Positions 8,660 to 56,105 are shown, counted from the first letter of the stretch. The stretch is DNA of 64,000 nt from a bacterium UBP11_UBA4055 (GCA_002382735.1 DFZN01000071.1:55542-119541), one strand, 5' to 3'. The notes: generated by a model not told the origin, from the letters alone. Program-made: numbers and translations.

Positions 8660-10083
8660 TACCTGTAGTGCTCGGGTTTATACGGGCCCTCAAGCGCAAC
8701 GCCGATGTAATCAGCCTGATCTTTTGTCATTTTTGTCAGTTTTACTCCGATCTTTTCAAGATGCAGTCTCGCCACTTCCTCGTCAGCTTTCTTTGAAAGC
8801 CTGTAAACTCCGATCTTATACTTTTTACGGTTCGCCCACAGATCAAGCTGGGCAAGCACCTGATTCGAGAATGAATTGCTCATAACGAACGAAGGGTGTC
8901 CGGTCGCGCACCCGAGGTTCACGAGCCTGCCTTCAGCAAGAAGGAATATCTCATGATTGTCCTTGAAAGTATATTTATCGACCTGAGGCTTAATATTTGT
9001 TTTCTTTTTAAGCTCTTTGCATTTTTCAAGCTTTTCAACCTCAATCTCATTGTCGAAATGGCCGATGTTGCATACGATAGCCTGATCTTTCATCTTAAGA
9101 ATATGCTCTATCCTTATAACATCCTTGTTGCCTGTGGTCGTTACATAAATGTCCGCTCTGCCGAGTGTGTCCTCGACCGTCGTAACTTCATAGCCTTCCA
9201 TTGATGCCTGAAGCGCGCAGATCGGGTCTATCTCGGTCACTATAACTCTTGCGCCGTAGTTCCTCAAAGATCTCGCCGAGCCTTTTCCGACATCTCCGTA
9301 TCCGCAGACTACAGCTACTTTGCCCGCAAGCATTACATCGGTGGCTCTCTTGATACCGTCAGGCAGTGATTCTCTGCATCCGTACAGGTTGTCGAACTTG
9401 GATTTAGTCACTGAATCGTTCACATTAATAGCCGGTATTAAAAGCTCGCCTTTTTCGAACATTTTGTACAACCTGTGAACGCCCGTAGTCGTCTCTTCTG
9501 AAACGCCTTTGAGCTCTTTGGCGCATCTGTGCCATTTATCCTTATCTTCTTCATACATCAGCTTTAGAGATCTCAACAAAGCCTTACCGTCAGAGCTTGA
9601 ATCCTTAATATTGAAAAGTTTCGGGTCTTTCTCGGCATAGTATCCTTTCTGGAACATTAGAGTTGCATCGCCGCCGTCATCAACTATAAGTTGCGGACCT
9701 TTTCCTCCGGGGAACGACATTGCCTGTGCAGTACACCACCAGAACTCGTCTAAGGTTTCGCCTTTCCAGGCAAAAACAGGCACTCCGGCTTTTGCTATGG
9801 CCGCAGCGGCGTGATCCTGAGTTGAAAAAATGTTGCAGCTTGACCACCTGACATCTGCGCCGAGGTCAACAAGGGTCTCGATTAGAACCGCAGTCTGGAT
9901 CGTCATGTGCAGTGAGCCTGTTATCCTGACATTCTTAAGAGGTCGTTCCGGCGCATACTTTTTTCTGATAGACATAAGCCCGGGCATTTCTTTTTCGGCT
10001 ATCTCGATCTCTTTTCTGCCGAAATCCGCCAGCTTAATATCCTTAACTTTGTAAGGCATTTTTTCATCGATGTATTTTTTCAT
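8656..10083 (-). CDS. ahcY: adenosylhomocysteinase (S-adenosyl-L-homocysteine hydrolase)
   Basis: A 475-aa protein with an NAD-binding Rossmann motif ([15 protein letters not shown]) and conserved SAHH blocks ([47 protein letters not shown]). Confidence 0.95.
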
Positions 10084-10097
10084 GCTGTCTCCAATAA

Positions 10098-10997
10098 TTA
10101 TTTTTTCCCCCGAACAAGAAATATCTCCCTCAACGGAATGTGGAAAGGTGTCCGTGTCGTTATAAATGTAAAATAAATTTTCTTTTCGGTAAACACTTTT
10201 CTGAACTTGTTTATGTGCTCGTCATAGATCTTTTTATACTTTTCCTTCAAAAGCGGCGTTTTGATTATCAGGCTGTCATCCGTTTCCGAATCGATGAGGT
10301 TCATGTGAGTCCCAAGCTCAAGGTTGTACTCGTCATCATCCGCTATCATGAACACAATAATGTCCTGCTGTCTTTTCTGCAGCGTAAGTATTCTGCCGAT
10401 CAGATCCTGCGGCTCTTCGAGCATGTCCGAGATCACGACAAGAATTCCGGATTTGCTTAATTTGAGGCTGATATGGTCAAATGAACGGTATGTTTCGTTC
10501 GTTTTATAAGATCCGTGACCTTCAAGGTTTATCAGTATGTTCTTCAGATGCTGTTTCGACGATCTTGGCGGGATATATTCCTTAAGTCCATCGGAGTAAT
10601 TTCCGAAACCCACGGAGTCTTTCTGATTGATAAGGATAGTCGCAACGGCCGCGGCAAGCTGTTTTCCGTAATCTAGCTTTGAGTATTTGAATTTGCCCGA
10701 ACGGAAATCCATTGAGGCCGATCTGTCGAGAAAAATATTTGCGTAGATATTCGTTTCATCTTCGAACTGCTTCAAAAAATACTTTTCTGTCCTGCCGAAT
10801 ATCTTCCAGTCTATAAACCTGGTCGAGTCACCGTCGTTGTACTGCTTATGCTCAGAAAATTCTGCCGAAAAACCCTTCATTGGGCTTGAGTGAATTCCGA
10901 GCATATAACCTTTTAGAACCATCCTCGTCGTCAGGCTCAGGTTTGAAAAAGTCGCGATAAATTCCGGATCAAGATATTTTTTGTAGTCTTCTGCCAT
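10098..10997 (-). CDS. DUF58-family protein (vWA-like; often partnered with MoxR ATPases)
   Basis: A 299-aa protein with a 'FLDRSASM' vWA/MIDAS-like motif and the overall DUF58 arrangement. Confidence 0.65.
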
Positions 10998-11194
10998 TGC
11001 GGACTAAATTTACGACAAAGTAAGGAAAATCTCAAATGAAATAAAAACTGGAATGTACCCGATTTCCTGTTGAAAGTTACTTCGCGGTTTCCTTTTCTGC
11101 TCATGCTTTGCATGAACTCAAGTTCTTTTAGCCGCGCTGCGAAGTCGTTACTGCGATACTGAGAACCACGGTCAGAATGAAATTATCTGGTAAA

Positions 11195-11374
11195 CTATCT
11201 TGTATATTTTGCTTTTGGGGGGATATCTTCCGGCATTATTTTTACAATTTTACCGGATTTGCTTACCACAAGAGGACTGTTCTTTTCTTTTTTGAACTTG
11301 ACCAGCTTAATGTAAGCTTCTTCTAGTCCTATTCTGATAAGCTCGTTTTCTTTTTGGATTTCTTCTTTAGTCAT
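11195..11374 (-). CDS. small ORF (59 aa) overlapping the 3' end of the zeta-like ATPase pseudogene by 8 nt; possible toxin-antitoxin partner
   Basis: Hand translation gives MTKEEIQKENELIRIGLEEAYIKLVKFKKEKNSPLVVSKSGKIVKIMPEDIPPKAKYTR. It is absent from the ORF track because it is below 60 aa. The ATGACTAA overlap with the upstream gene suggests translational coupling. Confidence 0.35.
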   Translation of the reverse strand: MTKEEIQKENELIRIGLEEAYIKLVKFKKEKNSPLVVSKSGKIVKIMPEDIPPKAKYTR

Positions 11375-11814
11375 TATATTGTCCGGTTAAATTATTCCAT
11401 TCTTTTTTATGATAAATAATTTCACTATTTCGAGTACCTTCAGCTATAATCTTATACGGATTGCCGGAATTGTTAATAAATATCCAGCTGTATATAGAAT
11501 TCTTATAAATTTTGAAGTTCTCTAAACCTCTTTTATATCTTCGTTTGATAACATCGAGCGGGTTATCGTGTCCACCTTCAGTAACTCGACATTTTACCCT
11601 TTCAACTGCAAGCTCCTGAGCATTCAACCAAAGAAAAACTAATTTAGTCGAGTATCCTTTGCTTTGAGCTTTATCAATGTATTTAATAAATGATTTTGAT
11701 GCAAGAGTAGTCTCGAAAGCAAAGTTCTCGTCTTCTGAGATTAATGTATTTATACGGCCAAGCATTAGTTTTTCCAGCTCCGTTCGCACCCGATATGATG
11801 TGAAGTTTCTTCAT
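11367..11814 (-). pseudogene. zeta-toxin/AAA_33-like P-loop kinase, frameshifted
   Basis: The ATG at 11814-11812 opens MKKLHIISGANGAGKTNAWPYK (Walker A GANGAGKT) in one frame. The rest of the protein (…FAFETTLASKSF…LVFLWLNAQELAVERV…) lies in the track ORF 11367-11789 in another frame. A single-base shift falls near 11770-11790. Confidence 0.6.
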
Positions 11815-12049
11815 CCACTTCCAAAGTTTTATTCGTGTAATTTAAAGCAGAAAACAGCTAAAAACAAGTTTATAATTTTTTTAACCTGTCAGAAAAGCAT
11901 ATTATTATTCCGGCAAATAAATATTTAAAACAATCCCTTTGCATAAATGACCTTTTGATGATTGAAAAAACTCTTAATTTTCTCTGTGTTTCTCTTTTTA
12001 ATTGCCGTGGTAATATATTGAGTTATGAAAATTAAACTGGAGGTGTCGC

Positions 12050-12175
12050 ATGACAACAAAGGAATTATATAAGATCGAAATAATGAAAGAGCTTGGACTC
12101 TTACCGGAAGACAGCCTGAAAAATGTAAAACTTTCTCTTGACAAAGCGTACGAAATTCCGTACTTTTATTCCTAG
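12050..12175 (+). CDS. small ORF (41 aa) with a strong RBS, immediately upstream of yefM
   Basis: CTGGAGGTGTCGC precedes the ATG. Translation is MTTKELYKIEIMKELGLLPEDSLKNVKLSLDKAYEIPYFYS. The ORF is absent from the track because it is under 60 aa. Confidence 0.35.
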   Translation: MTTKELYKIEIMKELGLLPEDSLKNVKLSLDKAYEIPYFYS

Positions 12176-12189
12176 AAGGAGGTAATCGG

Positions 12190-12432
12190 ATGACTACAAT
12201 AAATGTAACTGAAGCCAGAAAAAATTTATACAATCTTGTGGATTTAGCAAATGAATCGCATGAAACCATTCTGATATCAGGCAAACGGGGAAATGCTGTT
12301 TTAATATCAGAAGAAGACTGGTCAGCCATCAATGAAACTCTTTATCTTCTCTCAATTCCAAAGATGAGAGAATCAATAAAGAAAGGGCTGGAAACCCCTG
12401 TTGATGATTGCGATACGGATCTTTACTGGTGA
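12190..12432 (+). CDS. yefM: type II antitoxin of the Phd/YefM family
   Basis: An 80-aa protein beginning MTTINVTEARKNLYNLVD…TILISGKRGNAVLISEEDWSAINETLYLLS, the classical YefM signature. It is preceded by AGGAGG. Confidence 0.85.
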   Translation: MTTINVTEARKNLYNLVDLANESHETILISGKRGNAVLISEEDWSAINETLYLLSIPKMRESIKKGLETPVDDCDTDLYW

Positions 12433-12692
12433 AGTGGAAATTAATATATACAAAACAGGCTCAGAAAGATGCTCTGAAGCTAAAATCAGCCGCGCTCAAA
12501 GATAAAGCTGCGGAACCGCTTAAGATTCTCTCAGACGATCCTTTACAAAATCCCCCCAAGTATGAAAAGCTTGTCGGTGATCTTTCCGGTGCATATTCAA
12601 GAAGAATAAATATTCAGCACCGTCTTGTATATCAGATCTACGATCAGGAAAGAATCGTGAAAGTTATCAGAATATGGACTCATTATGAGTAG
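12429..12692 (+). CDS. yoeB: type II toxin of the YoeB/Txe family (RelE superfamily mRNA interferase)
   Basis: KLIYTKQAQKDALKL…LSGAYSRRINIQHRLVYQI matches the YoeB core (LSGxWSRRIxxEHRLVY). A GTG start overlaps the yefM stop (GTGA). The in-frame ATG at 12408 is an alternative start. Confidence 0.8.
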   Translation: MKWKLIYTKQAQKDALKLKSAALKDKAAEPLKILSDDPLQNPPKYEKLVGDLSGAYSRRINIQHRLVYQIYDQERIVKVIRIWTHYE

Positions 12693-12696
12693 GGTG

Positions 12697-13380
12697 ATGA
12701 CAGAAGAACTCAAAACACACTATATCGGCCACGACGGAGCATACAGGTACCGGAAAGCAAAAGGTGAACCCGGTTGGGCTTCAGAAGAAGATAATTTGAA
12801 GTTCGAAAAGGTGATCGAAGACAGCCTAAGGATAGCCTGCATTCCTAAAGATGGTAGAGTTCTGGAGCTTGGCTGCGGTGCAGGCGATATGACTTTGGTT
12901 TTGGCCTCAAAAGGCTATGAAGCATACGGGATTGATATTTCACCGACTGCTATAGAATGGGCAAAAGAAAAAGCGAAAGAAAGGAATTTAAAACCTGATT
13001 TCATGATCGGAAGCGTGATGGATCTTTGCGATTTTCCTGACAATTACTTTGATTATATTCTGGACGGTCACTGCCTGCACTGCATAATAGGCAAAGATAG
13101 AGAAAAGTTTCTTTCTGAAGCGCTTCGTGTTCTTAAACCCTGCGGAATTTTCTTCTCCGAAACAATGTGCGGAGGAATAAGAGACCCTGAAGTTCTTAAA
13201 TTGTTCGATCCTGAATCAAGATGCATGATAAGAGATGGTGTCGCAGGCAGATATATTGGATTACCTGAAGATATAGTTGAAGAGTTTAAAAGTGCCGGAT
13301 TCAAGTTGATCAGTTACGAAATCAGTCCGGATCCTGACGCTCAGGACGATCTGAGAATTCATGCGACGAAAAAGACATGA
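12697..13380 (+). CDS. class I SAM-dependent methyltransferase (small-molecule type, not a DNA MTase)
   Basis: Motif I is VLELGCGAGDMTLVLASKG. There is no DPPY/NPPY or other DNA-MTase motif. The start codon lies just before the left 29-bp repeat. Confidence 0.8.
   Translation: MTEELKTHYIGHDGAYRYRKAKGEPGWASEEDNLKFEKVIEDSLRIACIPKDGRVLELGCGAGDMTLVLASKGYEAYGIDISPTAIEWAKEKAKERNLKPDFMIGSVMDLCDFPDNYFDYILDGHCLHCIIGKDREKFLSEALRVLKPCGIFFSETMCGGIRDPEVLKLFDPESRCMIRDGVAGRYIGLPEDIVEEFKSAGFKLISYEISPDPDAQDDLRIHATKKT
12711..12739. repeat. left copy of a 29-bp direct repeat (caaaacRcactatatcggccacgacgRag), 27/29 identical to 14172-14200
   Basis: Seen by eye: the two copies encode ELKTHYIGHDGAY in the MTase versus IELQSKTHYIGHDEEYK* in the + frame at 14158-14211. 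Confidence 0.7.
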
Positions 13381-13438
13381 AAAATTTTGATTTAAGCCGA
13401 AATTATTTGTATATTATTAGTAACCAAAGGAAACATGA

Positions 13439-13864
13439 ATGAAATCAAAGCTTTCCGAAAATATTGACAGAAATGACATAAATATGATCGTTGAATTTTG
13501 GGTTAACGGCTCGGATAGAGATTTTCAGACTATGAACTCAATGTTTGAAAAGAAAGAATACAACTGGTCACTTTTTATCGGACATTTGGTAATAGAAAAG
13601 CTTCTTAAGGCTTATTATGTAAAAATTATCGGAACACACGCACCTTTGATCCATAATTTATTAAAGCTGGCTATGGATTCTAAGCTTGAATTTGATGAAG
13701 AAAAGAGAATATTCTTTATCACTGTTACCGCATTCAACATTAATGCAAGATATGACGATTATAAAACTAATTTCTATAAAAAATGCACAAAAAAGTTCAC
13801 TGAGGAATGGTTAAATAAAATAACAGAGAACCGGGAATGGATAAAAAAACAGCTAAACTGGTAA
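13439..13864 (+). CDS. HEPN-domain protein (putative toxin partner of the downstream nucleotidyltransferase)
   Basis: A 141-aa protein with a HEPN-like helical core (…EKLLKAYYVKIIGTHAPLIHNLLKL…). It overlaps the downstream NTase gene by 28 nt. Confidence 0.65.
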   Translation: MKSKLSENIDRNDINMIVEFWVNGSDRDFQTMNSMFEKKEYNWSLFIGHLVIEKLLKAYYVKIIGTHAPLIHNLLKLAMDSKLEFDEEKRIFFITVTAFNINARYDDYKTNFYKKCTKKFTEEWLNKITENREWIKKQLNW

Positions 13865-14148
13865 ATGAGTTTATAAAAGCAGCGATCAAATTGAACCCTC
13901 ATCTTGTGAATGCATACCTTTTCGGGTCTTATGCAAAAGGTAATTTTGATGAGAACAGTGATATAGATATAGCTTTGGTGCTGGATAAACTTAAAGATAA
14001 TGAAAGATTTGACTTCCAGGTTGAACTTATGCTATTGTCTTCTAAATATGATAACAGAATAGAACCGCATCCTATCGCAAAAAAGGATTTGAATTTGAAT
14101 AACCCTTTTGCGGCGGAGATTTTAAAAACCGGCATTCCGCTTTTGTAA
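13837..14148 (+). CDS. minimal nucleotidyltransferase (MNT/Pol-beta superfamily; putative antitoxin)
   Basis: LFGSYAKGNFDENSDIDIALVL is the canonical GS…DxD NTase motif. Confidence 0.8.
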   Translation: MDKKTAKLVNEFIKAAIKLNPHLVNAYLFGSYAKGNFDENSDIDIALVLDKLKDNERFDFQVELMLLSSKYDNRIEPHPIAKKDLNLNNPFAAEILKTGIPLL

Positions 14149-14155
14149 CACCCTA

Positions 14156-14632
14156 CTATTGAATTACAGAGCAAAACGCACTATATCGGCCACGACGAAG
14201 AATATAAATGAAGAATATGATCGCCACTATTGTAACATAGTCCCAATCAATAAAATATTCTTTATCACTGACTGAATCAGTCATAAACAGTGTGTATTCC
14301 ATATCAGAAAAAGGCGCATCATAAATATAGTCGTAGTATCTGCCCTTATCCGTTTCTTTTACAAGTTCAGTTTTCTTGATGTCCGGCATGAACACAGGAT
14401 ATTCTTCAACGGCCTTTATTATATTGTAACAGTCCTCAGGTTCTGCCTGAACTCTAAATACCGCTTCGGCAGTCTTTATATCAGAATCCGGTATCTCGAC
14501 CAGTCTGATTATCATATCGTCATCTGTAACCAATATCTTTCCTTTACTGTCCGTAAAAGATAATGAAAACAGAGTTCCGGCAAAAATCGTCATAATTACG
14601 ATCAAATGTGCATAACAGGCATGAGTTCTCAT
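14156..14632 (-). CDS. secreted START/SRPBCC-like lipid-binding protein, apparently C-terminally shortened or remodelled
   Basis: It has an N-terminal hydrophobic signal and a DAPFSDMEY motif that matches the DAPWPFSDRDM block of the START-like protein at 55512. It is about 40 aa shorter than that paralogue, and its tail (…YILRRGRYSAFCSVIQ) is encoded by the 29-bp repeat. Confidence 0.5.
   Translation of the reverse strand: MRTHACYAHLIVIMTIFAGTLFSLSFTDSKGKILVTDDDMIIRLVEIPDSDIKTAEAVFRVQAEPEDCYNIIKAVEEYPVFMPDIKKTELVKETDKGRYYDYIYDAPFSDMEYTLFMTDSVSDKEYFIDWDYVTIVAIIFFIYILRRGRYSAFCSVIQ
14172..14200. repeat. right copy of the 29-bp direct repeat
   Basis: See 12711-12739. This copy also encodes the last ~10 codons of the minus-strand START-like ORF. 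Confidence 0.7.
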
Positions 14633-14924
14633 TTATACAAAAACCTGTAAGTAAAAGAAAAATTCAATATAATATCCTTATACCATTATTTCACAAAAAT
14701 ATACACATAAAACTTGCGTCCGGTAATAATTAATTTTAGTCACTTAAATAAAACGCAGTTTGACAGTTGCTATGTTTCTTATCTGTTTACGGTTTAAATT
14801 CCTTCGGGATCAGAAGCAGTAATGATTTTAAAGGCATTAAATATGTAAGCTGAACAGTAATGTCTTTCTAAAATGGGAATGAGGATGGTTTGAGTCTGAC
14901 ATACACATTTTAGAAGTCTTAATC

Positions 14925-15884
14925 TCATTTTATTGATAGATTATATTTTATGCCTAAACCAATAGCATCATTTTTATAATATGGAACAAATCGCACAGCT
15001 GTTTTATCATGATCTGAAACTACCCTTCTTCCGTTATCTGCTGCAATCCTTCCGAAACCGTATCCGATAGCAAGAGCTAAAGGATAATCACTTGCCCAGT
15101 GTACGCCGTTGTTCATCATCTGAAAAGATAACAGCCCCATGAGTGTCCATCCTACTGGTTTGACCCACCGGTTGTATTCCGGATAATTTTCCGTGATCAC
15201 AGTAAAAGTCATCATTGCCGTAGCCAGATGCCCGGATGGAAAAGCATCATAACTTGAAACATGCTCATGGTAATCGATCTGGTCGGGAAAGAAATCCCAT
15301 TTTCCTCCTTCTTCGGTCGATCTGTAAGGACTCTGCCTGCCTGTTATATGTTTTAGCACTTGGGTAGCGATCCCGGTAGTTATAAGTCCTTCAGCCAGCT
15401 GTGATGCGGTCTGCAGAGCCCTGTTGTCGTCTTTGATCAGACCGTAAGTTAGAAATCCTGTCATGATTGATCCGTGCAGCCACCCGTCGCCGAGGAAATA
15501 TAAAGATGATCCGAGATCGGTCGGACCTCTGAAAACAGGTATGCCTCCGATAGTAATGAACGATTGAGTCATATCTTTGCTGTTTATATTCAGATCCCGT
15601 CCCAGATCTTTAGCTTCATCGATAAGTTCCTGATCGTATATGATCAAAACAGCCGTAGAAACTGCAACAAGCGAATAGGTGATCAGACTATTCTTTTGCG
15701 TAAAAAGTCCGGCATATTCAAGATAATCGGGCACAATTCTTTTAAAAGGGTCAGGCAGACGGGGTCTTGAATATTCGTACACAGTTCCTTTATATTCGAA
15801 GATTTGCCTGTCTTCAAATCCCGCAAATAATGTGATACATATTGTCAGAATAATAAGCAGGATATTTACTTTAAAACATCTCAT
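14925..15884 (-). CDS. PAP2-family (type 2 phosphatidic acid/lipid phosphate) phosphatase, membrane
   Basis: PAP2 motifs are KxxxxxxRP-like, FPSGHLATAMM, and SDYPLA with H/D residues. It has an N-terminal TM segment. Confidence 0.7.
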   Translation of the reverse strand: MRCFKVNILLIILTICITLFAGFEDRQIFEYKGTVYEYSRPRLPDPFKRIVPDYLEYAGLFTQKNSLITYSLVAVSTAVLIIYDQELIDEAKDLGRDLNINSKDMTQSFITIGGIPVFRGPTDLGSSLYFLGDGWLHGSIMTGFLTYGLIKDDNRALQTASQLAEGLITTGIATQVLKHITGRQSPYRSTEEGGKWDFFPDQIDYHEHVSSYDAFPSGHLATAMMTFTVITENYPEYNRWVKPVGWTLMGLLSFQMMNNGVHWASDYPLALAIGYGFGRIAADNGRRVVSDHDKTAVRFVPYYKNDAIGLGIKYNLSIK

Positions 15885-15890
15885 AACCGT

Positions 15891-16430
15891 TCAGAAATTA
15901 TAAGAAAAACTAAATCCGTACATATCGCTCCCTGAAATGATACCGACAGACAGATCGTTTTTTGTATATCTGTCCGTAAAATAATAAGAGCATGATATGC
16001 CCAGAGCGGCTCCGCCGAGCACATCCCAGATGTCGTGCATGTCAGATTCGCCCTCAATGCGACTGTATCCCACGAACGAGGCGAGCAGGTATGAGGGAAT
16101 ACCCCATTTCCAACCGTATCTGCGCTGGATAAAAGAGGCTCCCTGAAACGCAGCAGAAGTGTGACCGGAAGGGAAAGCGTAATGACCGTTGCCTTCCGGC
16201 CTTGGTTTATCTATGATATATTTTAAACCGTGAGTCAGAGCAGTATTGACAATCACTGATTTTAGGAACATGTTCCTGCCGTCCTTATCACCTATAACGA
16301 GAGCGGTTAGAAATCCTGCAACAGGTATGGCGAGCTGAATTATATCACCAGCATTCGCAACATCAGGATTCTCCTCAAAGTCAACTGCGAAAAGTAAATA
16401 TCCTGATAAAAGAAAAATGATAAGCATAAG
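15891..16430 (-). CDS. PAP2-family phosphatase (second copy)
   Basis: Motifs are KYIIDKPRPEG, FPSGHTSAAF and SRIEGESDMHDIWDVLGGAALG. I chose the internal start MLIIFLL; the track N-terminal extension to 16535 is the antisense of the Lys/Ala repeat of the neighbouring gene. Confidence 0.7.
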   Translation of the reverse strand, partial: LMLIIFLLSGYLLFAVDFEENPDVANAGDIIQLAIPVAGFLTALVIGDKDGRNMFLKSVIVNTALTHGLKYIIDKPRPEGNGHYAFPSGHTSAAFQGASFIQRRYGWKWGIPSYLLASFVGYSRIEGESDMHDIWDVLGGAALGISCSYYFTDRYTKNDLSVGIISGSDMYGFSFSYNF

Positions 16431-16440
16431 TCTTTTCAAA

Positions 16441-18036
16441 TCAGAATCCCGGTATCTTGATCTTTTTCTTGGCTTCCGCCGCAGCTTTCTCAGCCTCAGC
16501 TTTTGCTTTGGCTTCCGCCGCAGCTTTCTCGGCATCGATCTTAGCCTGCGCTTTTGCCTTCTCTTCCTCCAGCTTCGCTTCGGCTTCAGCTTTTGCTTTG
16601 TCGATCTCTTCCTGAGCTTTCTGCTTTACTTCGTCTATCTTCTCGTCAACGAACGCGCCGGCTTTCTTTTTTATGAGTTCGGTGAGGCTGACGGGCATGA
16701 ACGATACTTTTACTTCGGGATCTGAGATGTCGCCTGTTGAAGTGAATTCGATAAATATTCTTCCGTCTCTGACCACGCCTGCGAGTAATTCGTTCTTGAT
16801 CTCCTGTTTGTCGATCTTGACACCTTTGATCTTGACATCCTTCATGCTGTCGTCGATGAATTTATCCGCCTGATCAAGCAGCTTTTTGGATTCCGCCTCA
16901 GATACAGTCAGATCACCTTTGAAACTGTGCTGATTGTTCATAACATTGAACCAGCTCTCTTTCTGAATTGCGACATCGTAATCGGCCGTAAGCACCTTCA
17001 GGTTTTCCTCGAAAGAAACTTTCCCTTCTTTGTATCTTATGTCAGTATCGGCATTCTTGCTTAGAACGGCTTTTTTACTCAGGATGTCGAGATTTATACC
17101 GACTTTCTCCAGAGTGGCAAGTGAAGATTTGACTTTTTCTAACGCGACAAGAGCCTGAATGAAAGAGCCTTTCCCGATAGATATCGCGTAAACAGCTTCG
17201 GGATCGACTTTACCTGTATTAGGATTGAACGGTCTGAGAACGGCACTCGACTTTATGCCGAGTCTGGCCTGTTCGGACTTCTCTTTGTTGTATATAGCCA
17301 TATTCGTATTGAAAGTGACTGTAGCTTTGTTGTGGTTAATCAGGTCCTTGGGATCAATGTCGATCTTATCTATGACCATGAAGAAGTCCGAGATCAGAAA
17401 GCGCTGCTGCGTGGTCTTAAAGAAAATGTCAACCTCGCCGTTCTCTATCCCGATCTGGTTCATCGTCGCGGCTATAGGCATGTCCTTAGCCGAAAAATCC
17501 TCCTGCGGCTCATCGGGCTGCTGTGCAGCAGGTTCCTGCGCAGCCTCAGTTTCAGCCTGCTCAGAAACTTCTGCCGGTCTTCCTTCTGCCGCTTTCCCTG
17601 AAGGCTGACCGAGCAGGGGAGTGAGATTGTCCTGCCCTTCTTCACCGAGTGTAAGTCTCGCTACCGGCCTCTGAATAATGAACTTGTTCAGCTCGAACCT
17701 TTTGTCGAATAGCGGGATCAGATTGGCCTTCAGCTCAATATTCTCAATTGAGATTATCTCACCTTCTATCTTCGGCCTTTCGTCGATGTGGACTTTGTCG
17801 TCCGCGTACTTATCTCTCTTTCCGAGCTTTATCCCGTCGATCTTCAGAGAGGGTGTGAAAGAAAAGATCCCGATGCTCACATCTGTAAGTTCGAACCTTG
17901 AATTAGTCTCAGCCTCCACAGCCTTGACGATTATGTCCTTGTCGAAATATTTCTCAAGGTAGATCTTTACCCCGAAAAGACCGACAACGACTATGAATAC
18001 TACAGCCAGAACGATCCTGAACAGCCACTTGAACAT
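16441..18036 (-). CDS. AsmA-like / DUF748-like membrane-anchored protein with a C-terminal KAEAEAK low-complexity tail
   Basis: It has a single N-terminal TM (MFKWLFRIVLAVVFIVVVGLFGV) followed by a long soluble region. The C-terminus is (KAEAE)n coiled-coil-like. Confidence 0.45.
   Translation of the reverse strand: MFKWLFRIVLAVVFIVVVGLFGVKIYLEKYFDKDIIVKAVEAETNSRFELTDVSIGIFSFTPSLKIDGIKLGKRDKYADDKVHIDERPKIEGEIISIENIELKANLIPLFDKRFELNKFIIQRPVARLTLGEEGQDNLTPLLGQPSGKAAEGRPAEVSEQAETEAAQEPAAQQPDEPQEDFSAKDMPIAATMNQIGIENGEVDIFFKTTQQRFLISDFFMVIDKIDIDPKDLINHNKATVTFNTNMAIYNKEKSEQARLGIKSSAVLRPFNPNTGKVDPEAVYAISIGKGSFIQALVALEKVKSSLATLEKVGINLDILSKKAVLSKNADTDIRYKEGKVSFEENLKVLTADYDVAIQKESWFNVMNNQHSFKGDLTVSEAESKKLLDQADKFIDDSMKDVKIKGVKIDKQEIKNELLAGVVRDGRIFIEFTSTGDISDPEVKVSFMPVSLTELIKKKAGAFVDEKIDEVKQKAQEEIDKAKAEAEAKLEEEKAKAQAKIDAEKAAAEAKAKAEAEKAAAEAKKKIKIPGF
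16471..16530. repeat. 39-bp-period tandem duplication (ggcttccgccgcagctttctc x2) inside the Lys/Ala/Glu-rich 3' end of the AsmA-like gene
   Basis: Two identical 21-mers lie at 16471-16491 and 16510-16530. Confidence 0.6.
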
Positions 18037-55511: not shown

Positions 55512-56105
55512 ATGAAATATATCCTTTACATCATATTTCTGATATTTGCGTTCATTCTGGCAGCGGATGAAAACTGGGAACTGAAAAAACAGGGCGGTAA
55601 CTTCAAAGCCTATTTAAAAGACCGCAACGGAAAACACTACAGGATCGAAGCTGAATTCAGCTGTTCTTCCGATTCCGTTTATAATTTTCTGACCGGATTT
55701 GAGCGTTTCCCGGATCACTTCGACAACATAAGTTCTCTGGCGATCCTGAGCTCGAACGATTCTGTCACGATACACTACTCAGTTATCGACGCACCCTGGC
55801 CTTTTTCAGACAGGGACATGATCACAAGAGTAGAGGTTGACAAAGCTCAGGGAAAGACCACGATATTGTCATCAGCCTGCGATCATAAGATCGGATTCAG
55901 TACGGGAAACAGGATCAGAATAGATGATTTCGAAGAAAAACTGGAGATAACAGAAATAGAAAGCGGAAGAACTCTTCTTACGATATCAGGCAGGATCAGG
56001 CTCAAGGAAAATCTTCCCGAATGGCTACAGAACAGGCTCATTCTTTCGGGACCTGTTAAGACGATAGAAATTATCAATAAAAAATACAACCGGAGAATAA
56101 ATTGA
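55512..56105 (+). CDS. secreted START/SRPBCC lipid-binding-domain protein
   Basis: It has a signal peptide and the START-like DAPWPFSDRDMITRVEV block. Length is 197 aa. Confidence 0.55.
   Translation: MKYILYIIFLIFAFILAADENWELKKQGGNFKAYLKDRNGKHYRIEAEFSCSSDSVYNFLTGFERFPDHFDNISSLAILSSNDSVTIHYSVIDAPWPFSDRDMITRVEVDKAQGKTTILSSACDHKIGFSTGNRIRIDDFEEKLEITEIESGRTLLTISGRIRLKENLPEWLQNRLILSGPVKTIEIINKKYNRRIN

What the first reader, a model, noticed from the sequence alone, without database searches (positions are those of the whole stretch)
12050..14211. A 1.46-kb segment carrying a SAM methyltransferase and a HEPN/nucleotidyltransferase pair, bounded by a 29-bp direct repeat that duplicates the methyltransferase N-terminal codons and forms the 3' end of a START-like gene
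caaaacRcactatatcggccacgacgRag occurs at 12711-12739, inside the methyltransferase start region where it encodes …LKTHYIGHDGAY…, and again at 14172-14200 with 27/29 identity. There the + frame reads IELQSKTHYIGHDEEYK*, a ghost copy of the methyltransferase N-terminus. On the minus strand, the second copy supplies the last ~10 codons of the START-like protein 14156-14632. That protein is about 40 aa shorter than its paralogue at 55512 and has an atypical tail. A 29-bp repeat is much longer than a transposon target-site duplication. It looks like the footprint of site-specific or homologous recombination that inserted or rearranged this methyltransferase + HEPN-nucleotidyltransferase cassette (with small ORF + YefM-YoeB immediately upstream) and truncated the START gene.
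Basis: seen in the sequence. Interest (0 to 1): 0.6.

Follow-up and report, generated by a model that had tools for sequence, protein, structure and literature searches.

The report
Leftover stub of a lost methyltransferase
The 29-base repeat is real, but its second copy is the leftover first codons of a second, destroyed methyltransferase gene inside an 87-base patchwork of gene fragments left by deletions, not the border of a mobile cassette.

Summary
The 29-mer occurs at 12711-12739 and 14172-14200 at 27/29, none is expected by chance, and at least three independent assemblies carry both copies.

The organism is a Candidatus Delongbacteria bacterium. Three relatives (L016, L018, L035) carry the methyltransferase (MTase) downstream of YefM-YoeB without HEPN-MNT, so the MTase is not cargo delimited by the repeat. 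HEPN-MNT (13386-14148) is a separate module with its own promoter-like site; it occurs alone in another context (L021).

In the closest relative (L035/L042) the second repeat copy is a 17-codon relic of an MTase start, MTKEIKTHYIGHKGANK*. It overlaps the ATG of a secreted metallophosphoesterase gene ("geneX"). Window 14172-14235 matches that stretch at 92%.

So 14149-14235 reads as spacer, then MTase stub, then the first 9 codons of geneX. It is joined tail-to-tail at 14234-14236 to a START-like gene cut at codon 133; homologues are 188-226 aa. A third contig (L020) fuses the same stub to half of an MBL-fold gene.

The best reading is a functionless scar of deletions and short-homology recombination in a plastic accessory-gene region rich in toxin-antitoxin genes. 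No recombinase, tRNA or inverted repeats were found. This is ordinary and of low interest.

The parts
12190..12432 (+). YefM-type antitoxin gene. It is the first gene of the conserved YefM-YoeB-MTase block, which begins at about 12126 inside orf41.
   Evidence: Pfam PF02604 at 8.4e-18. The protein is 96-97% identical in L016 and L018.
12429..12692 (+). YoeB/ParE-type toxin gene (87-aa call with a GTG start overlapping the YefM stop). Its TAG stop overlaps the upstream ATG of the MTase.
   Evidence: Pfam PF06769 at 4.3e-10. Gene calls come and the sequence.
12685..13380 (+). Intact class I SAM methyltransferase (MTase_A). The likely native start is the ATG at 12697 (MTEELKTHY...).
   Evidence: Pfam Methyltransf_11 at 5.8e-24. 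Orthologues at 84-89% aa identity follow YoeB in L016, L018 and L035. The family N-terminus KT.YIGHD..YK.RKA is conserved.
12711..12739 (+). Repeat copy 1. It covers codons 6-15 of MTase_A, counted from the ATG at 12697.
13386..14148 (+). Self-contained HEPN-MNT module. It has a promoter-like TTGATT..TATATT at 13387-13415, the HEPN gene at 13439-13864 and the MNT gene at 13837-14148.
   Evidence: Pfam hits. blastn aligns L021 3421-4183 to window 13386-14148 at 86%, in a different context. The promoter-like site is conserved in L020 and L021. The MNT carries GSX10DXD, and the HEPN has no R-X4-6-H.
14149..14171 (+). A 23-nt spacer after the MNT stop. It is shared only with L020 and is of unknown origin.
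   Evidence: Alignment. It has no similarity to L021, L025 or L035 at this position.
14172..14200 (+). Repeat copy 2, a 5' stub of a second MTase copy starting at codon 6 with no start codon. Positions 14172-14193 are identical in window, L020 and L035. Positions 14194-14197 follow the MTase and L020. From about 14204 the sequence follows L035.
14208..14235 (+). Remnant of geneX, a secreted metallophosphoesterase. It comprises the ATG plus the first 9 codons (MKNMIATIV) and is 28/28 identical to L035 4081-4108.
   Evidence: blastn aligns L035 4045-4108 to window 14172-14235 at 92%, E = 2e-20. The L035 ORF is 51% identical to the L018 Metallophos gene.
14156..14632 (-). Truncated START-like (SRPBCC / Polyketide_cyc) ORF. 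Codons 1-133 (14632-14234) are genuine. Codons 134-158 are read-through across the antisense of the geneX remnant, the MTase stub and the spacer.
   Evidence: Of the 20 homologues found, those whose alignment reaches the break stop at residue 133-134 = window 14234 and carry about 64-70 more residues. The full Polyketide_cyc domain is present in P0122 and P0123.

Best explanation
The second repeat copy is a non-functional relic: the first few codons of a second copy of the neighbouring methyltransferase (MTase) gene, whose body has been deleted. It is one tile in an 87-nt mosaic of gene fragments, 14149-14235. The mosaic runs: spacer after MNT, then MTase stub (codons 6 to about 14), then the ribosome-binding region and first 9 codons of a secreted metallophosphoesterase gene (geneX). 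It is joined tail-to-tail at 14234-14236 to a START-like gene cut after codon 133.

The repeat exists because the stub and the intact gene share the most conserved N-terminal coding stretch of this MTase family.

Shown:
- The stub-geneX arrangement exists intact in the closest relative.
- The START-like gene is truncated at 14234.
- The HEPN-MNT module and the YefM-YoeB-MTase block are separate units whose ends do not match the repeat.

Inferred:
- (i) An ancestor had two MTase copies, from a tandem duplication or from acquisition of the YefM-YoeB-MTase block next to a native copy. One copy was then reduced to a stub in front of geneX.
- (ii) An illegitimate join placed the HEPN-MNT downstream spacer against stub codon 6. 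This junction is shared with L020.
- (iii) A deletion between the convergent genes geneX and START removed both 3' parts. The START ORF now runs on to the first stop at 14156-14158.
- (iv) The window is L020-like to the left of about 14197 and L035-like to the right of about 14204. At least one step was therefore probably a crossover inside the roughly 26 nt shared by MTase 5' copies.

Nothing suggests a present-day function for the repeat.
For: The repeat is real and reproducible.

The family N-terminus is conserved across hundreds of homologues, and the ghost fits it.

L035 and L042 are two assemblies, 99.97% identical to each other. L035 comes from the same MAG as L007, which is 92% nt identical to the window across DUF58-AdoHcyase. 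Their gene order is YoeB, MTase, TPR, Peptidase_C11, stub (ATG...17 codons...TGA overlapping the ATG of geneX), geneX. Window 14172-14235 matches this at 92%, E = 2e-20.

geneX is a Metallophos homologue.

START homologues stop aligning at window 14234 and continue for about 64-70 aa. No remnant of the missing part exists elsewhere in the window.

L020 has the same MNT-spacer-CAAAAC junction. There the stub runs on to ...GAYKHR and is fused in frame to the 3' half of an MBL-fold gene that is 82% aa identical to L018's intact gene.

L016, L018 and L035 carry the YefM-YoeB-MTase genes without HEPN-MNT; in L018 a GNAT gene separates YoeB from the MTase. In L018 the MTase abuts AsmA, as on the window's right flank.

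L021 has HEPN-MNT alone.

No recombinase or transposase lies within +/-10 kb. There are no flanking inverted repeats, no tRNA and no Rfam hit. No similarity beyond weak partial matches over the YefM-YoeB genes in three plasmid records appears in plasmid, phage or viral collections.
Against: No relative was found with a full-length second MTase at this position, nor with geneX and a full-length START gene convergent. The two-copy ancestor and the geneX/START deletion are therefore inferred, not observed.

The junction pattern is not tree-like: the left junction is shared with L020, and the stub-to-geneX transition is shared with L035. It needs either a crossover inside the stub or a chimeric 1.26-kb L020 contig.

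Five differences cluster in 12 nt (14194-14205) between the window and L035, next to 22 and 30 identical nt. This is a conversion-like or recombination patch that is not fully explained.

All seven or eight contigs of the window's own type are identical here, so population data say nothing about decay.
Confidence: 0.8

Rival explanations
1. The origin of the second copy was a tandem duplication of a unit starting in the MTase 5' end, followed by deletion of nearly all of copy 2. In the window the unit would be 12711-14171. In L035 it would run from the MTase ATG to 11 nt past the Peptidase_C11 stop. This is a variant of the best explanation that differs only in where the second copy came from.
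For: In both the window and L035 the stub lies on the same strand, 1.5-3.8 kb downstream of the intact gene. The stub is near-identical to the gene: 27/29 in the window and 35/36 over the first 36 nt in L035.
Against: Two different duplication units would be needed for L035 and for the window/L020.

The L035 stub has ATC (MTKEI), as in the copies not directly fused to YoeB in L017 and L018. All three YoeB-fused genes have CTC.

L020's stub reads YKHR, as in L016, not YRYR as in the window's own gene.

These markers are few, so the argument is weak.
Confidence: 0.25
2. The 29-mer is an att-like or homologous core, and a 1.46-kb MTase + HEPN/MNT cassette was integrated by site-specific or Campbell-type recombination. 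That duplicated the core and truncated START.
For: An imperfect direct repeat flanks a segment carrying accessory genes. GC is low around HEPN-MNT and START. The region differs between relatives.
Against: No recombinase lies within +/-10 kb, and there is no tRNA.

The units that actually vary between genomes are 12126-13380 and 13386-14148. Neither is bounded by the repeat.

In relatives, homology of copy 2 to the MTase extends beyond the 29-mer on the left, back to the ATG in L035, and on the right, to YKHR in L020. The 29-mer is therefore only what is left.

The START break is 35 nt away from the repeat.

The left junction, spacer|CAAAAC, has no homology to the sequence left of copy 1, so it cannot be a reciprocal crossover product.
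Confidence: 0.04
3. The stub is kept for a function. One option is an upstream mini-ORF translationally coupled to geneX, as its ATGA overlap in L035 suggests. Another, in the window, is an antisense segment in the START transcript that pairs with the MTase mRNA at 27/29.
For: In L035 the stub is an intact 17-codon ORF whose stop overlaps the geneX start. The stub is 92% conserved between L035 and the window.
Against: That conservation equals the neutral background between these genomes: 90-92% over the neighbouring genes.

In the window and in L020 the stub has lost its start codon, and stop codons lie just upstream in frame.

In the window geneX itself is gone. L018's geneX has no stub.
Confidence: 0.04
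4. The repeat is a chance match or an assembly artefact.
For: None beyond the AT-rich context.
Against: None of 100 shuffles gave a match. Both copies occur in at least three independent assemblies. Copy 2 has orthologous counterparts in L020 and in L035/L042.
Confidence: 0.01

Closest known systems
Gene remnants (pseudogene stubs) left by deletion of one of two redundant gene copies
   Same: It is a short 5' fragment with both nucleotide and amino-acid homology to an intact neighbouring gene. It lacks the catalytic domain. Its extent varies between relatives, and it is fused to whatever lay beyond the deletion.
   Different: Nothing essential differs. The only unusual point is that the same stub is seen joined to three different partners (geneX, an MBL-fold gene, the MNT spacer) in close relatives.
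attL/attR direct repeats of integrative elements and Campbell-type insertions
   Same: Imperfect direct repeats flank a segment that carries accessory and toxin-antitoxin genes.
   Different: There is no integrase and no tRNA or other conserved target. The repeat does not coincide with the limits of the variable units. Homology of copy 2 to the gene extends beyond the 'core' in relatives. No empty site was found.
Integron gene-cassette arrays (sedentary chromosomal integrons rich in TA cassettes)
   Same: Relatives show co-oriented arrays of small accessory enzymes (GNAT, MTases, NUDIX, HD, MBL) interspersed with TA pairs, with gene-by-gene presence/absence differences.
   Different: There is no IntI. 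No attC-like inverted repeats lie between the genes; the intergenic spacers are 23-58 nt. Housekeeping genes such as TyrRS sit inside the arrays.
HEPN-MNT (type VII, HepT/MntA) toxin-antitoxin modules
   Same: It is an adjacent, overlapping HEPN + minimal nucleotidyltransferase pair. The MNT has the GSX10DXD motif (motif as given in PMC11586414). The pair behaves as a discrete two-gene unit found in different contexts.
   Different: The HEPN is the PF05168 type and has no R-X4-6-H / RX4HXY motif. The MNT scores 46.3 bits against NCBIfam's MntA cut-off of 60. HEPN is encoded first.
YefM-YoeB type II toxin-antitoxin modules
   Same: Both Pfam families score above their cut-offs. The genes overlap, with the antitoxin first.
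   Different: In three genomes the YoeB stop overlaps the start of a SAM methyltransferase, making a conserved three-gene block. The meaning of this link was not tested.

Membership tests
Integrative element bounded by att repeats | A site-specific recombinase (integrase or resolvase) is encoded in or next to the bounded segment. | tested here: not met
   ORFs in 10000-17000 and the precomputed Pfam hits for all genes within 10 kb on either side show no integrase, resolvase or transposase.
Integrative element bounded by att repeats | The repeats coincide with the ends of the unit that is present or absent among relatives, and the empty site has a single core. | tested here: not met
   The variable units are 12126-13380 and 13386-14148. 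Relatives with one core (L016, L017, L018) have it as the start of a complete MTase. The closest relative, L035, also has two copies, 3.8 kb apart, around different cargo.
Integrative element bounded by att repeats | The core is reused elsewhere, or lies in a tRNA or other conserved target. | tested here: not met
   There are only two copies in the window and no tRNA in 64 kb. IMG/VR viral contigs gave no match.
Transposon with target-site duplication | Terminal inverted repeats and a transposase lie inside short (2-14 bp) direct repeats. | tested here: not met
   No inverted repeats lie at 12740 or 14171 and no transposase was found. A repeat of 29-33 nt is longer than typical target-site duplications (own knowledge).
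Integron cassette array | An IntI integrase is present, and attC imperfect palindromes lie at cassette boundaries. | tested here: not met
   There is no IntI-like Pfam hit. The intergenic spacers are 58 nt (13381-13438) and 23 nt (14149-14171), with no inverted repeat reported.
Gene remnant (5' stub of a paralogue) | Nucleotide and protein homology to the 5' end of an intact family member. | tested here: met
   The match to the resident gene is 27/29. The reading KTHYIGHD..YK fits the family N-terminus. Alignment A2 shows the homology.
Gene remnant (5' stub of a paralogue) | The rest of the gene is absent, and the fragment cannot encode the domain. | tested here: met
   The stub is followed by a stop after 17 codons and has no start codon. 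The Methyltransf domain starts at residue 55-60 of the intact protein.
Gene remnant (5' stub of a paralogue) | Orthologous remnants exist in relatives, with different extents or partners. | tested here: met
   In L035/L042 the stub has an ATG and is joined to intact geneX. In L020 the stub is longer and fused to half of an MBL gene. One search gives the three-way comparison.
SRPBCC / START-like (Polyketide_cyc) protein | A complete helix-grip domain of about 126 profile positions, including the C-terminal helix. | tested here: not met
   The window ORF matches profile positions 1-36 only, at 21.9 bits against a cut-off of 23.4. Homologues P0122 and P0123 match positions 3-125. All alignments end at residue 133.
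HEPN-MNT type VII toxin-antitoxin | The MNT carries the GSX10DXD nucleotidyltransferase motif. | tested here: met
   GSYAKGNFDENSDID is at residues 30-44. The motif definition is from PMC11586414.
HEPN-MNT type VII toxin-antitoxin | The HEPN carries the RX4HXY (R-X4-6-H) RNase motif. | tested here: not met
   The 141-aa HEPN protein has no R-X4-6-H. The motif definition is from PMC11586414.
HEPN-MNT type VII toxin-antitoxin | The MNT scores above the curated MntA equivalog cut-off. | tested here: not met
   NF047752 scores 46.3 bits against a cut-off of 60.
HEPN-MNT type VII toxin-antitoxin | The antitoxin AMPylates the toxin, and the toxin arrests growth. | not testable with these tools
   This requires biochemistry and genetics.
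YefM-YoeB type II toxin-antitoxin | Adjacent antitoxin and toxin genes of the PhdYeFM and YoeB/ParE families, both above their cut-offs. | tested here: met
   PF02604 scores 64.4 bits against 29.8, and PF06769 scores 39.9 against 27. The genes overlap by 4 nt.

The most novel reading that the evidence does not exclude
The conserved 5' coding segment of this methyltransferase family (about 26-45 nt, ATGACAAAAGAAMTCAAAACRCACTATATCGGCCAC) may act as a recurrent short-homology joint. Through it, Delongbacteria would shuffle, delete and re-link gene blocks in their accessory and toxin-antitoxin arrays. In a handful of close relatives it is already seen joined to four different partners: a full MTase body, geneX, half an MBL gene, and the MNT spacer. 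The window itself looks like a crossover product between an L020-like and an L035-like stub.
Probability: 0.1. Interest if true: 0.4.

Novelty: already known. Interest (0 to 1): 0.15.

Why it matters
It matters mainly for annotation. Four points follow:
- The 158-aa 'START-like protein' is a truncated gene with a 25-residue read-through tail and should be flagged as a probable pseudogene.
- The region 14149-14235 contains no gene.
- The MTase belongs with YefM-YoeB, not with HEPN-MNT.
- HEPN-MNT is a separate movable two-gene unit.

The locus is a clear worked example of how deletions in a TA-rich variable region leave chained gene stubs that mimic att sites. It does not open a new biological question, unless the MTase 5' segment proves to be a preferred recombination joint.

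Tried and rejected
(1) I looked for an empty site from the left flank. The DUF58 protein found 8 Delongbacteria genomes, but in all of them homology to the window stops at about 11045-11048. The left side gives no empty site.

(2) A word-index search with the START-like protein found only itself. The exhaustive HMMER search was needed to find homologues.

(3) I first read L020 as carrying a full second MTase paralogue after MNT, from a tblastn hit of 38% over 86 aa. I rejected this. Only about 42 nt are MTase-like, and the rest is the 3' half of an MBL-fold gene.

(4) I first took 14201-14233 to be filler or a diverged START tail. I rejected this once L035 showed it to be the start of geneX.

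(5) A 9-nt inverted match between 12689-12697 and 14149-14157 looked like a template-switch footprint. It is not conserved in L020, so I treat it as chance.

(6) The 'partial' MTases P0028 and P0036 are simply cut by contig ends.

(7) The geneX fragment has no other close homologue in the word-index search. Its only contexts are L035 and L042, both ending 239 nt into the gene. What lies beyond geneX could therefore not be seen.

(8) Plasmid, phage and IMG/VR searches gave nothing relevant. There is no tRNA and no Rfam family.

(9) Exact-protein look-ups for MNT and YefM returned only the same population, plus L020 and the short contig L041.


Full report
**Observation**

CAAAACACACTATATCGGCCACGACGGAG lies at 12711-12739 and CAAAACGCACTATATCGGCCACGACGAAG at 14172-14200, a 27/29 match. 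These are the only two matches in the window with up to three mismatches allowed, and 100 shuffles gave none. With looser ends the pair is 33 nt at 91%, spaced 1461 nt apart.

The gene content is also as described:
- orf41: 12050-12175
- YefM: 12190-12432
- YoeB: 12429-12692
- class I SAM methyltransferase (MTase): 12685-13380
- HEPN: 13439-13864
- minimal nucleotidyltransferase (MNT): 13837-14148
- START-like ORF on the minus strand: 14156-14632

Residues 145-154 of the START-like ORF are antisense to repeat copy 2.

Contigs from JGI 3300002446, JGI 3300000032 and Logan SRR636597 carry both copies at the same spacing. Logan SRR16297625 has the same gene order. The repeat is therefore not an assembly artefact.

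**Organism and neighbourhood**

A DUF58-anchored scan places the window in Candidatus Delongbacteria. From the left, synteny with eight related genomes ends at about 11045-11048, just past DUF58.

Between there and about 14900 lies a low-GC stretch (0.30-0.36, against 0.43-0.49 in the flanks). The MTase itself is at 0.41-0.42. This stretch holds a frameshifted zeta-toxin gene, YefM-YoeB, HEPN-MNT and the START-like ORF.

No integrase or transposase is encoded within 10 kb on either side. No inverted repeats flank the segment. The whole window has no tRNA, and 9000-17000 has no Rfam family.

**The MTase is not cargo of the repeat**

MTase orthologues at 84-89% aa identity were traced to their contigs:
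- L016: YefM-YoeB-MTase-GNAT-TPR.
- L018/L019: YefM-YoeB-GNAT-MTase, convergent with AsmA, radical SAM, RPE and tricorn. This is the same right-hand flank as in the window, but without HEPN-MNT, START or the two PAP2 genes.
- L035: YoeB-MTase-TPR-Peptidase_C11.

At the DNA level, window 12126-13373 is 86-90% identical in these three contigs. The MTase therefore belongs with YefM-YoeB.

The N-terminus KT.YIGHD..YK.RKA.G.PGW is conserved across hundreds of family members. The ghost reading SKTHYIGHDEEYK* fits that consensus.

**HEPN-MNT is a separate unit**

An MNT-anchored metagenome scan found L021. There, window 13386-14148 recurs at 86% nt identity between two unrelated methyltransferase genes. 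Homology starts just after the upstream stop codon and ends at the MNT stop codon.

The unit carries its own promoter-like TTGATT..TATATT, conserved in L020 and L021. Its ends are not the repeat.

The MNT has the GSX10DXD motif. The HEPN (PF05168) has no R-X4-6-H motif, and the MNT misses NCBIfam's MntA cut-off. Membership in the characterised type VII HepT/MntA family is therefore not established (motif definitions from PMC11586414).

**What copy 2 really is**

The closest relative is the MAG STF1_163. Its contig L007 is 92% nt identical to the window over DUF58-AdoHcyase. Its contig L035 carries a second MTase start, 11 nt after the Peptidase_C11 stop:

ATGACAAAAGAAATCAAAACGCACTATATCGGCCACAAGGGAGCAAATAAATGA

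This is a 17-codon mini-ORF, MTKEIKTHYIGHKGANK*. Its TGA overlaps the ATG of the next gene, which begins MKNMIATIVILTVSLLIAQDGP.... A second assembly, L042, has the same sequence at 99.97% identity.

That next gene (geneX) is 51% identical to the N-terminal part of a 353-aa Metallophos protein in L018.

blastn aligns L035 4045-4108 to window 14172-14235 at 92%, E = 2e-20. Window 14208-14235 is 28/28 identical to the first nine codons of geneX. Repeat copy 2 is therefore the orthologue of a pre-existing MTase stub that sits in front of geneX.

**The START-like gene**

The exhaustive HMMER search found 20 homologues; the full-length alignable ones are 188-226 aa. Nearly all stop aligning at residue 133 of the window protein and then continue for about 64-70 residues (...WDYVKGDLK..GSW...).

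By tblastn the homology ends at window 14234, and no trace of the missing part exists elsewhere in the window. P0122 and P0123 contain the whole Polyketide_cyc domain, whereas the window ORF matches only profile positions 1-36.

geneX-derived sequence runs up to 14235, and START-derived sequence starts at 14234 on the other strand. The two truncated genes are therefore joined tail-to-tail with 0-2 nt of overlap and no filler. The last 25 codons of the 'START' ORF are read-through across, in order, the antisense of the geneX start, the MTase stub and the spacer.

**A third version**

L020 is a 1259-nt contig with 100% identical MNT and 93% nt identity to window 13263-14208. It has the same MNT stop, spacer and CAAAAC junction as the window.

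Its stub, however, continues as ...GHDGAYKHR. It is then fused in frame to the last 100 or so codons of an MBL-fold gene that is intact in L018, at 82% aa identity.

In a three-way comparison, the window behaves as follows:
- 14172-14193: identical to both L020 and L035.
- 14194-14197 (GACG): follows L020 and the MTase.
- From about 14204 onward: follows L035.

The left junction is thus shared with L020 and the stub-to-geneX transition with L035. This mosaic implies a crossover within the roughly 26 nt common to MTase 5' copies, or a chimeric L020 contig.

**Most likely history**

The steps below are inferred.
1. An ancestor had two MTase copies. Either a native MTKEI-type copy sat upstream of geneX alongside the YefM-YoeB-linked copy, or there was a tandem duplication. 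One copy was cut down to a stub.
2. An illegitimate join brought the HEPN-MNT spacer against stub codon 6.
3. A deletion between the convergent genes geneX and START removed both 3' parts.

The repeat is simply the region where the stub and the intact gene still coincide. I see no evidence for present function. In the window and in L020 the stub has no start codon, and stop codons lie just upstream in frame. Its 92% conservation equals the background divergence of neighbouring genes.

**Comparison with known systems, and verdict**

The structure mimics attL/attR but fails every testable att criterion. It also fails the criteria for transposon target-site duplications and for integron cassettes. 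It meets all criteria of a gene remnant.

This is an ordinary deletion scar in a plastic region rich in toxin-antitoxin genes. The one reading with some novelty is that this MTase 5' segment is a recurrent short-homology recombination joint in Delongbacteria. That idea rests on four junction types in a few relatives, and I put it at about 10%.

Noticed in passing
window 11367-11814 (-): The zeta-toxin-like gene is split by a frameshift near an A5 run at about 11765. The Walker-A piece MKKLHIISGANGAGKT lies in ORF 11683-11814 and the rest in ORF 11367-11789. Independent assemblies make the same 132-aa call. The upstream 59-aa ORF (11195-11374) has no family hit.
   Followed up: no
window ~12105-12135; L039, L040: Two independent Logan contigs (SRR636597, SRR16297625) both begin at window 12105, inside orf41. 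This is 20-30 nt left of the point where the YefM-YoeB-MTase block shared with L016 and L018 begins. It suggests an assembly-graph branch (strain variation or a second context) at the left edge of that block.
   Followed up: no
window 12126-13373 vs L016, L018: The YefM-YoeB-MTase block is 86-90% nt identical (YefM 96-97% aa) in genomes whose syntenic flank is far more diverged. L018's AsmA is 55% aa identical, and its flank is about 69% nt identical. This suggests the three-gene block is exchanged between Delongbacteria lineages. The YoeB stop overlaps an MTase start in three genomes.
   Followed up: partly
L018 9237-10048: In L018 a GNAT gene sits between YoeB and the MTase. It has taken over the YoeB-overlapping start MSRMMT. 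The octamer ATGACAAA occurs at both ends of the extra 779 nt, so this is another small duplication of the MTase start at a block junction.
   Followed up: partly
window 13703-13724 and 14249-14270: A 22-nt direct repeat (20/22, with an exact 17-mer AATATTCTTTATCACTG) links the HEPN coding region and the antisense of the START-like gene. It is probably chance in AT-rich DNA, but it remains unexplained (D5).
   Followed up: no
L035 4319 / L042 3789: Two MAG assemblies of the closest relative both end at the same base, 239 nt into geneX. This hints at a repeat or a strain breakpoint inside that gene.
   Followed up: no
window 13381-16440 vs L018 10714-10724: In L018 the MTase stop and the AsmA stop are 10 nt apart. 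The window has about 3 kb between them: HEPN-MNT, the scar, the truncated START gene and two tandem PAP2 paralogues (14925-15884 and 15891-16535). The PAP2 genes have native-like GC of 0.45.
   Followed up: no
window 16469-16618: The 3' end of AsmA carries degenerate 39-nt repeats that encode KAEAEAK-type low-complexity sequence. The window protein is 531 aa, against 482 aa in L018.
   Followed up: no
L002/L005 (JGI 3300000032): This older assembly of the same population has several genes split or shortened relative to the window: PAP2a 179 aa, DUF58 225 aa, radical SAM 785 aa. These are probably sequencing frameshifts. The repeat region is nonetheless identical.
   Followed up: no
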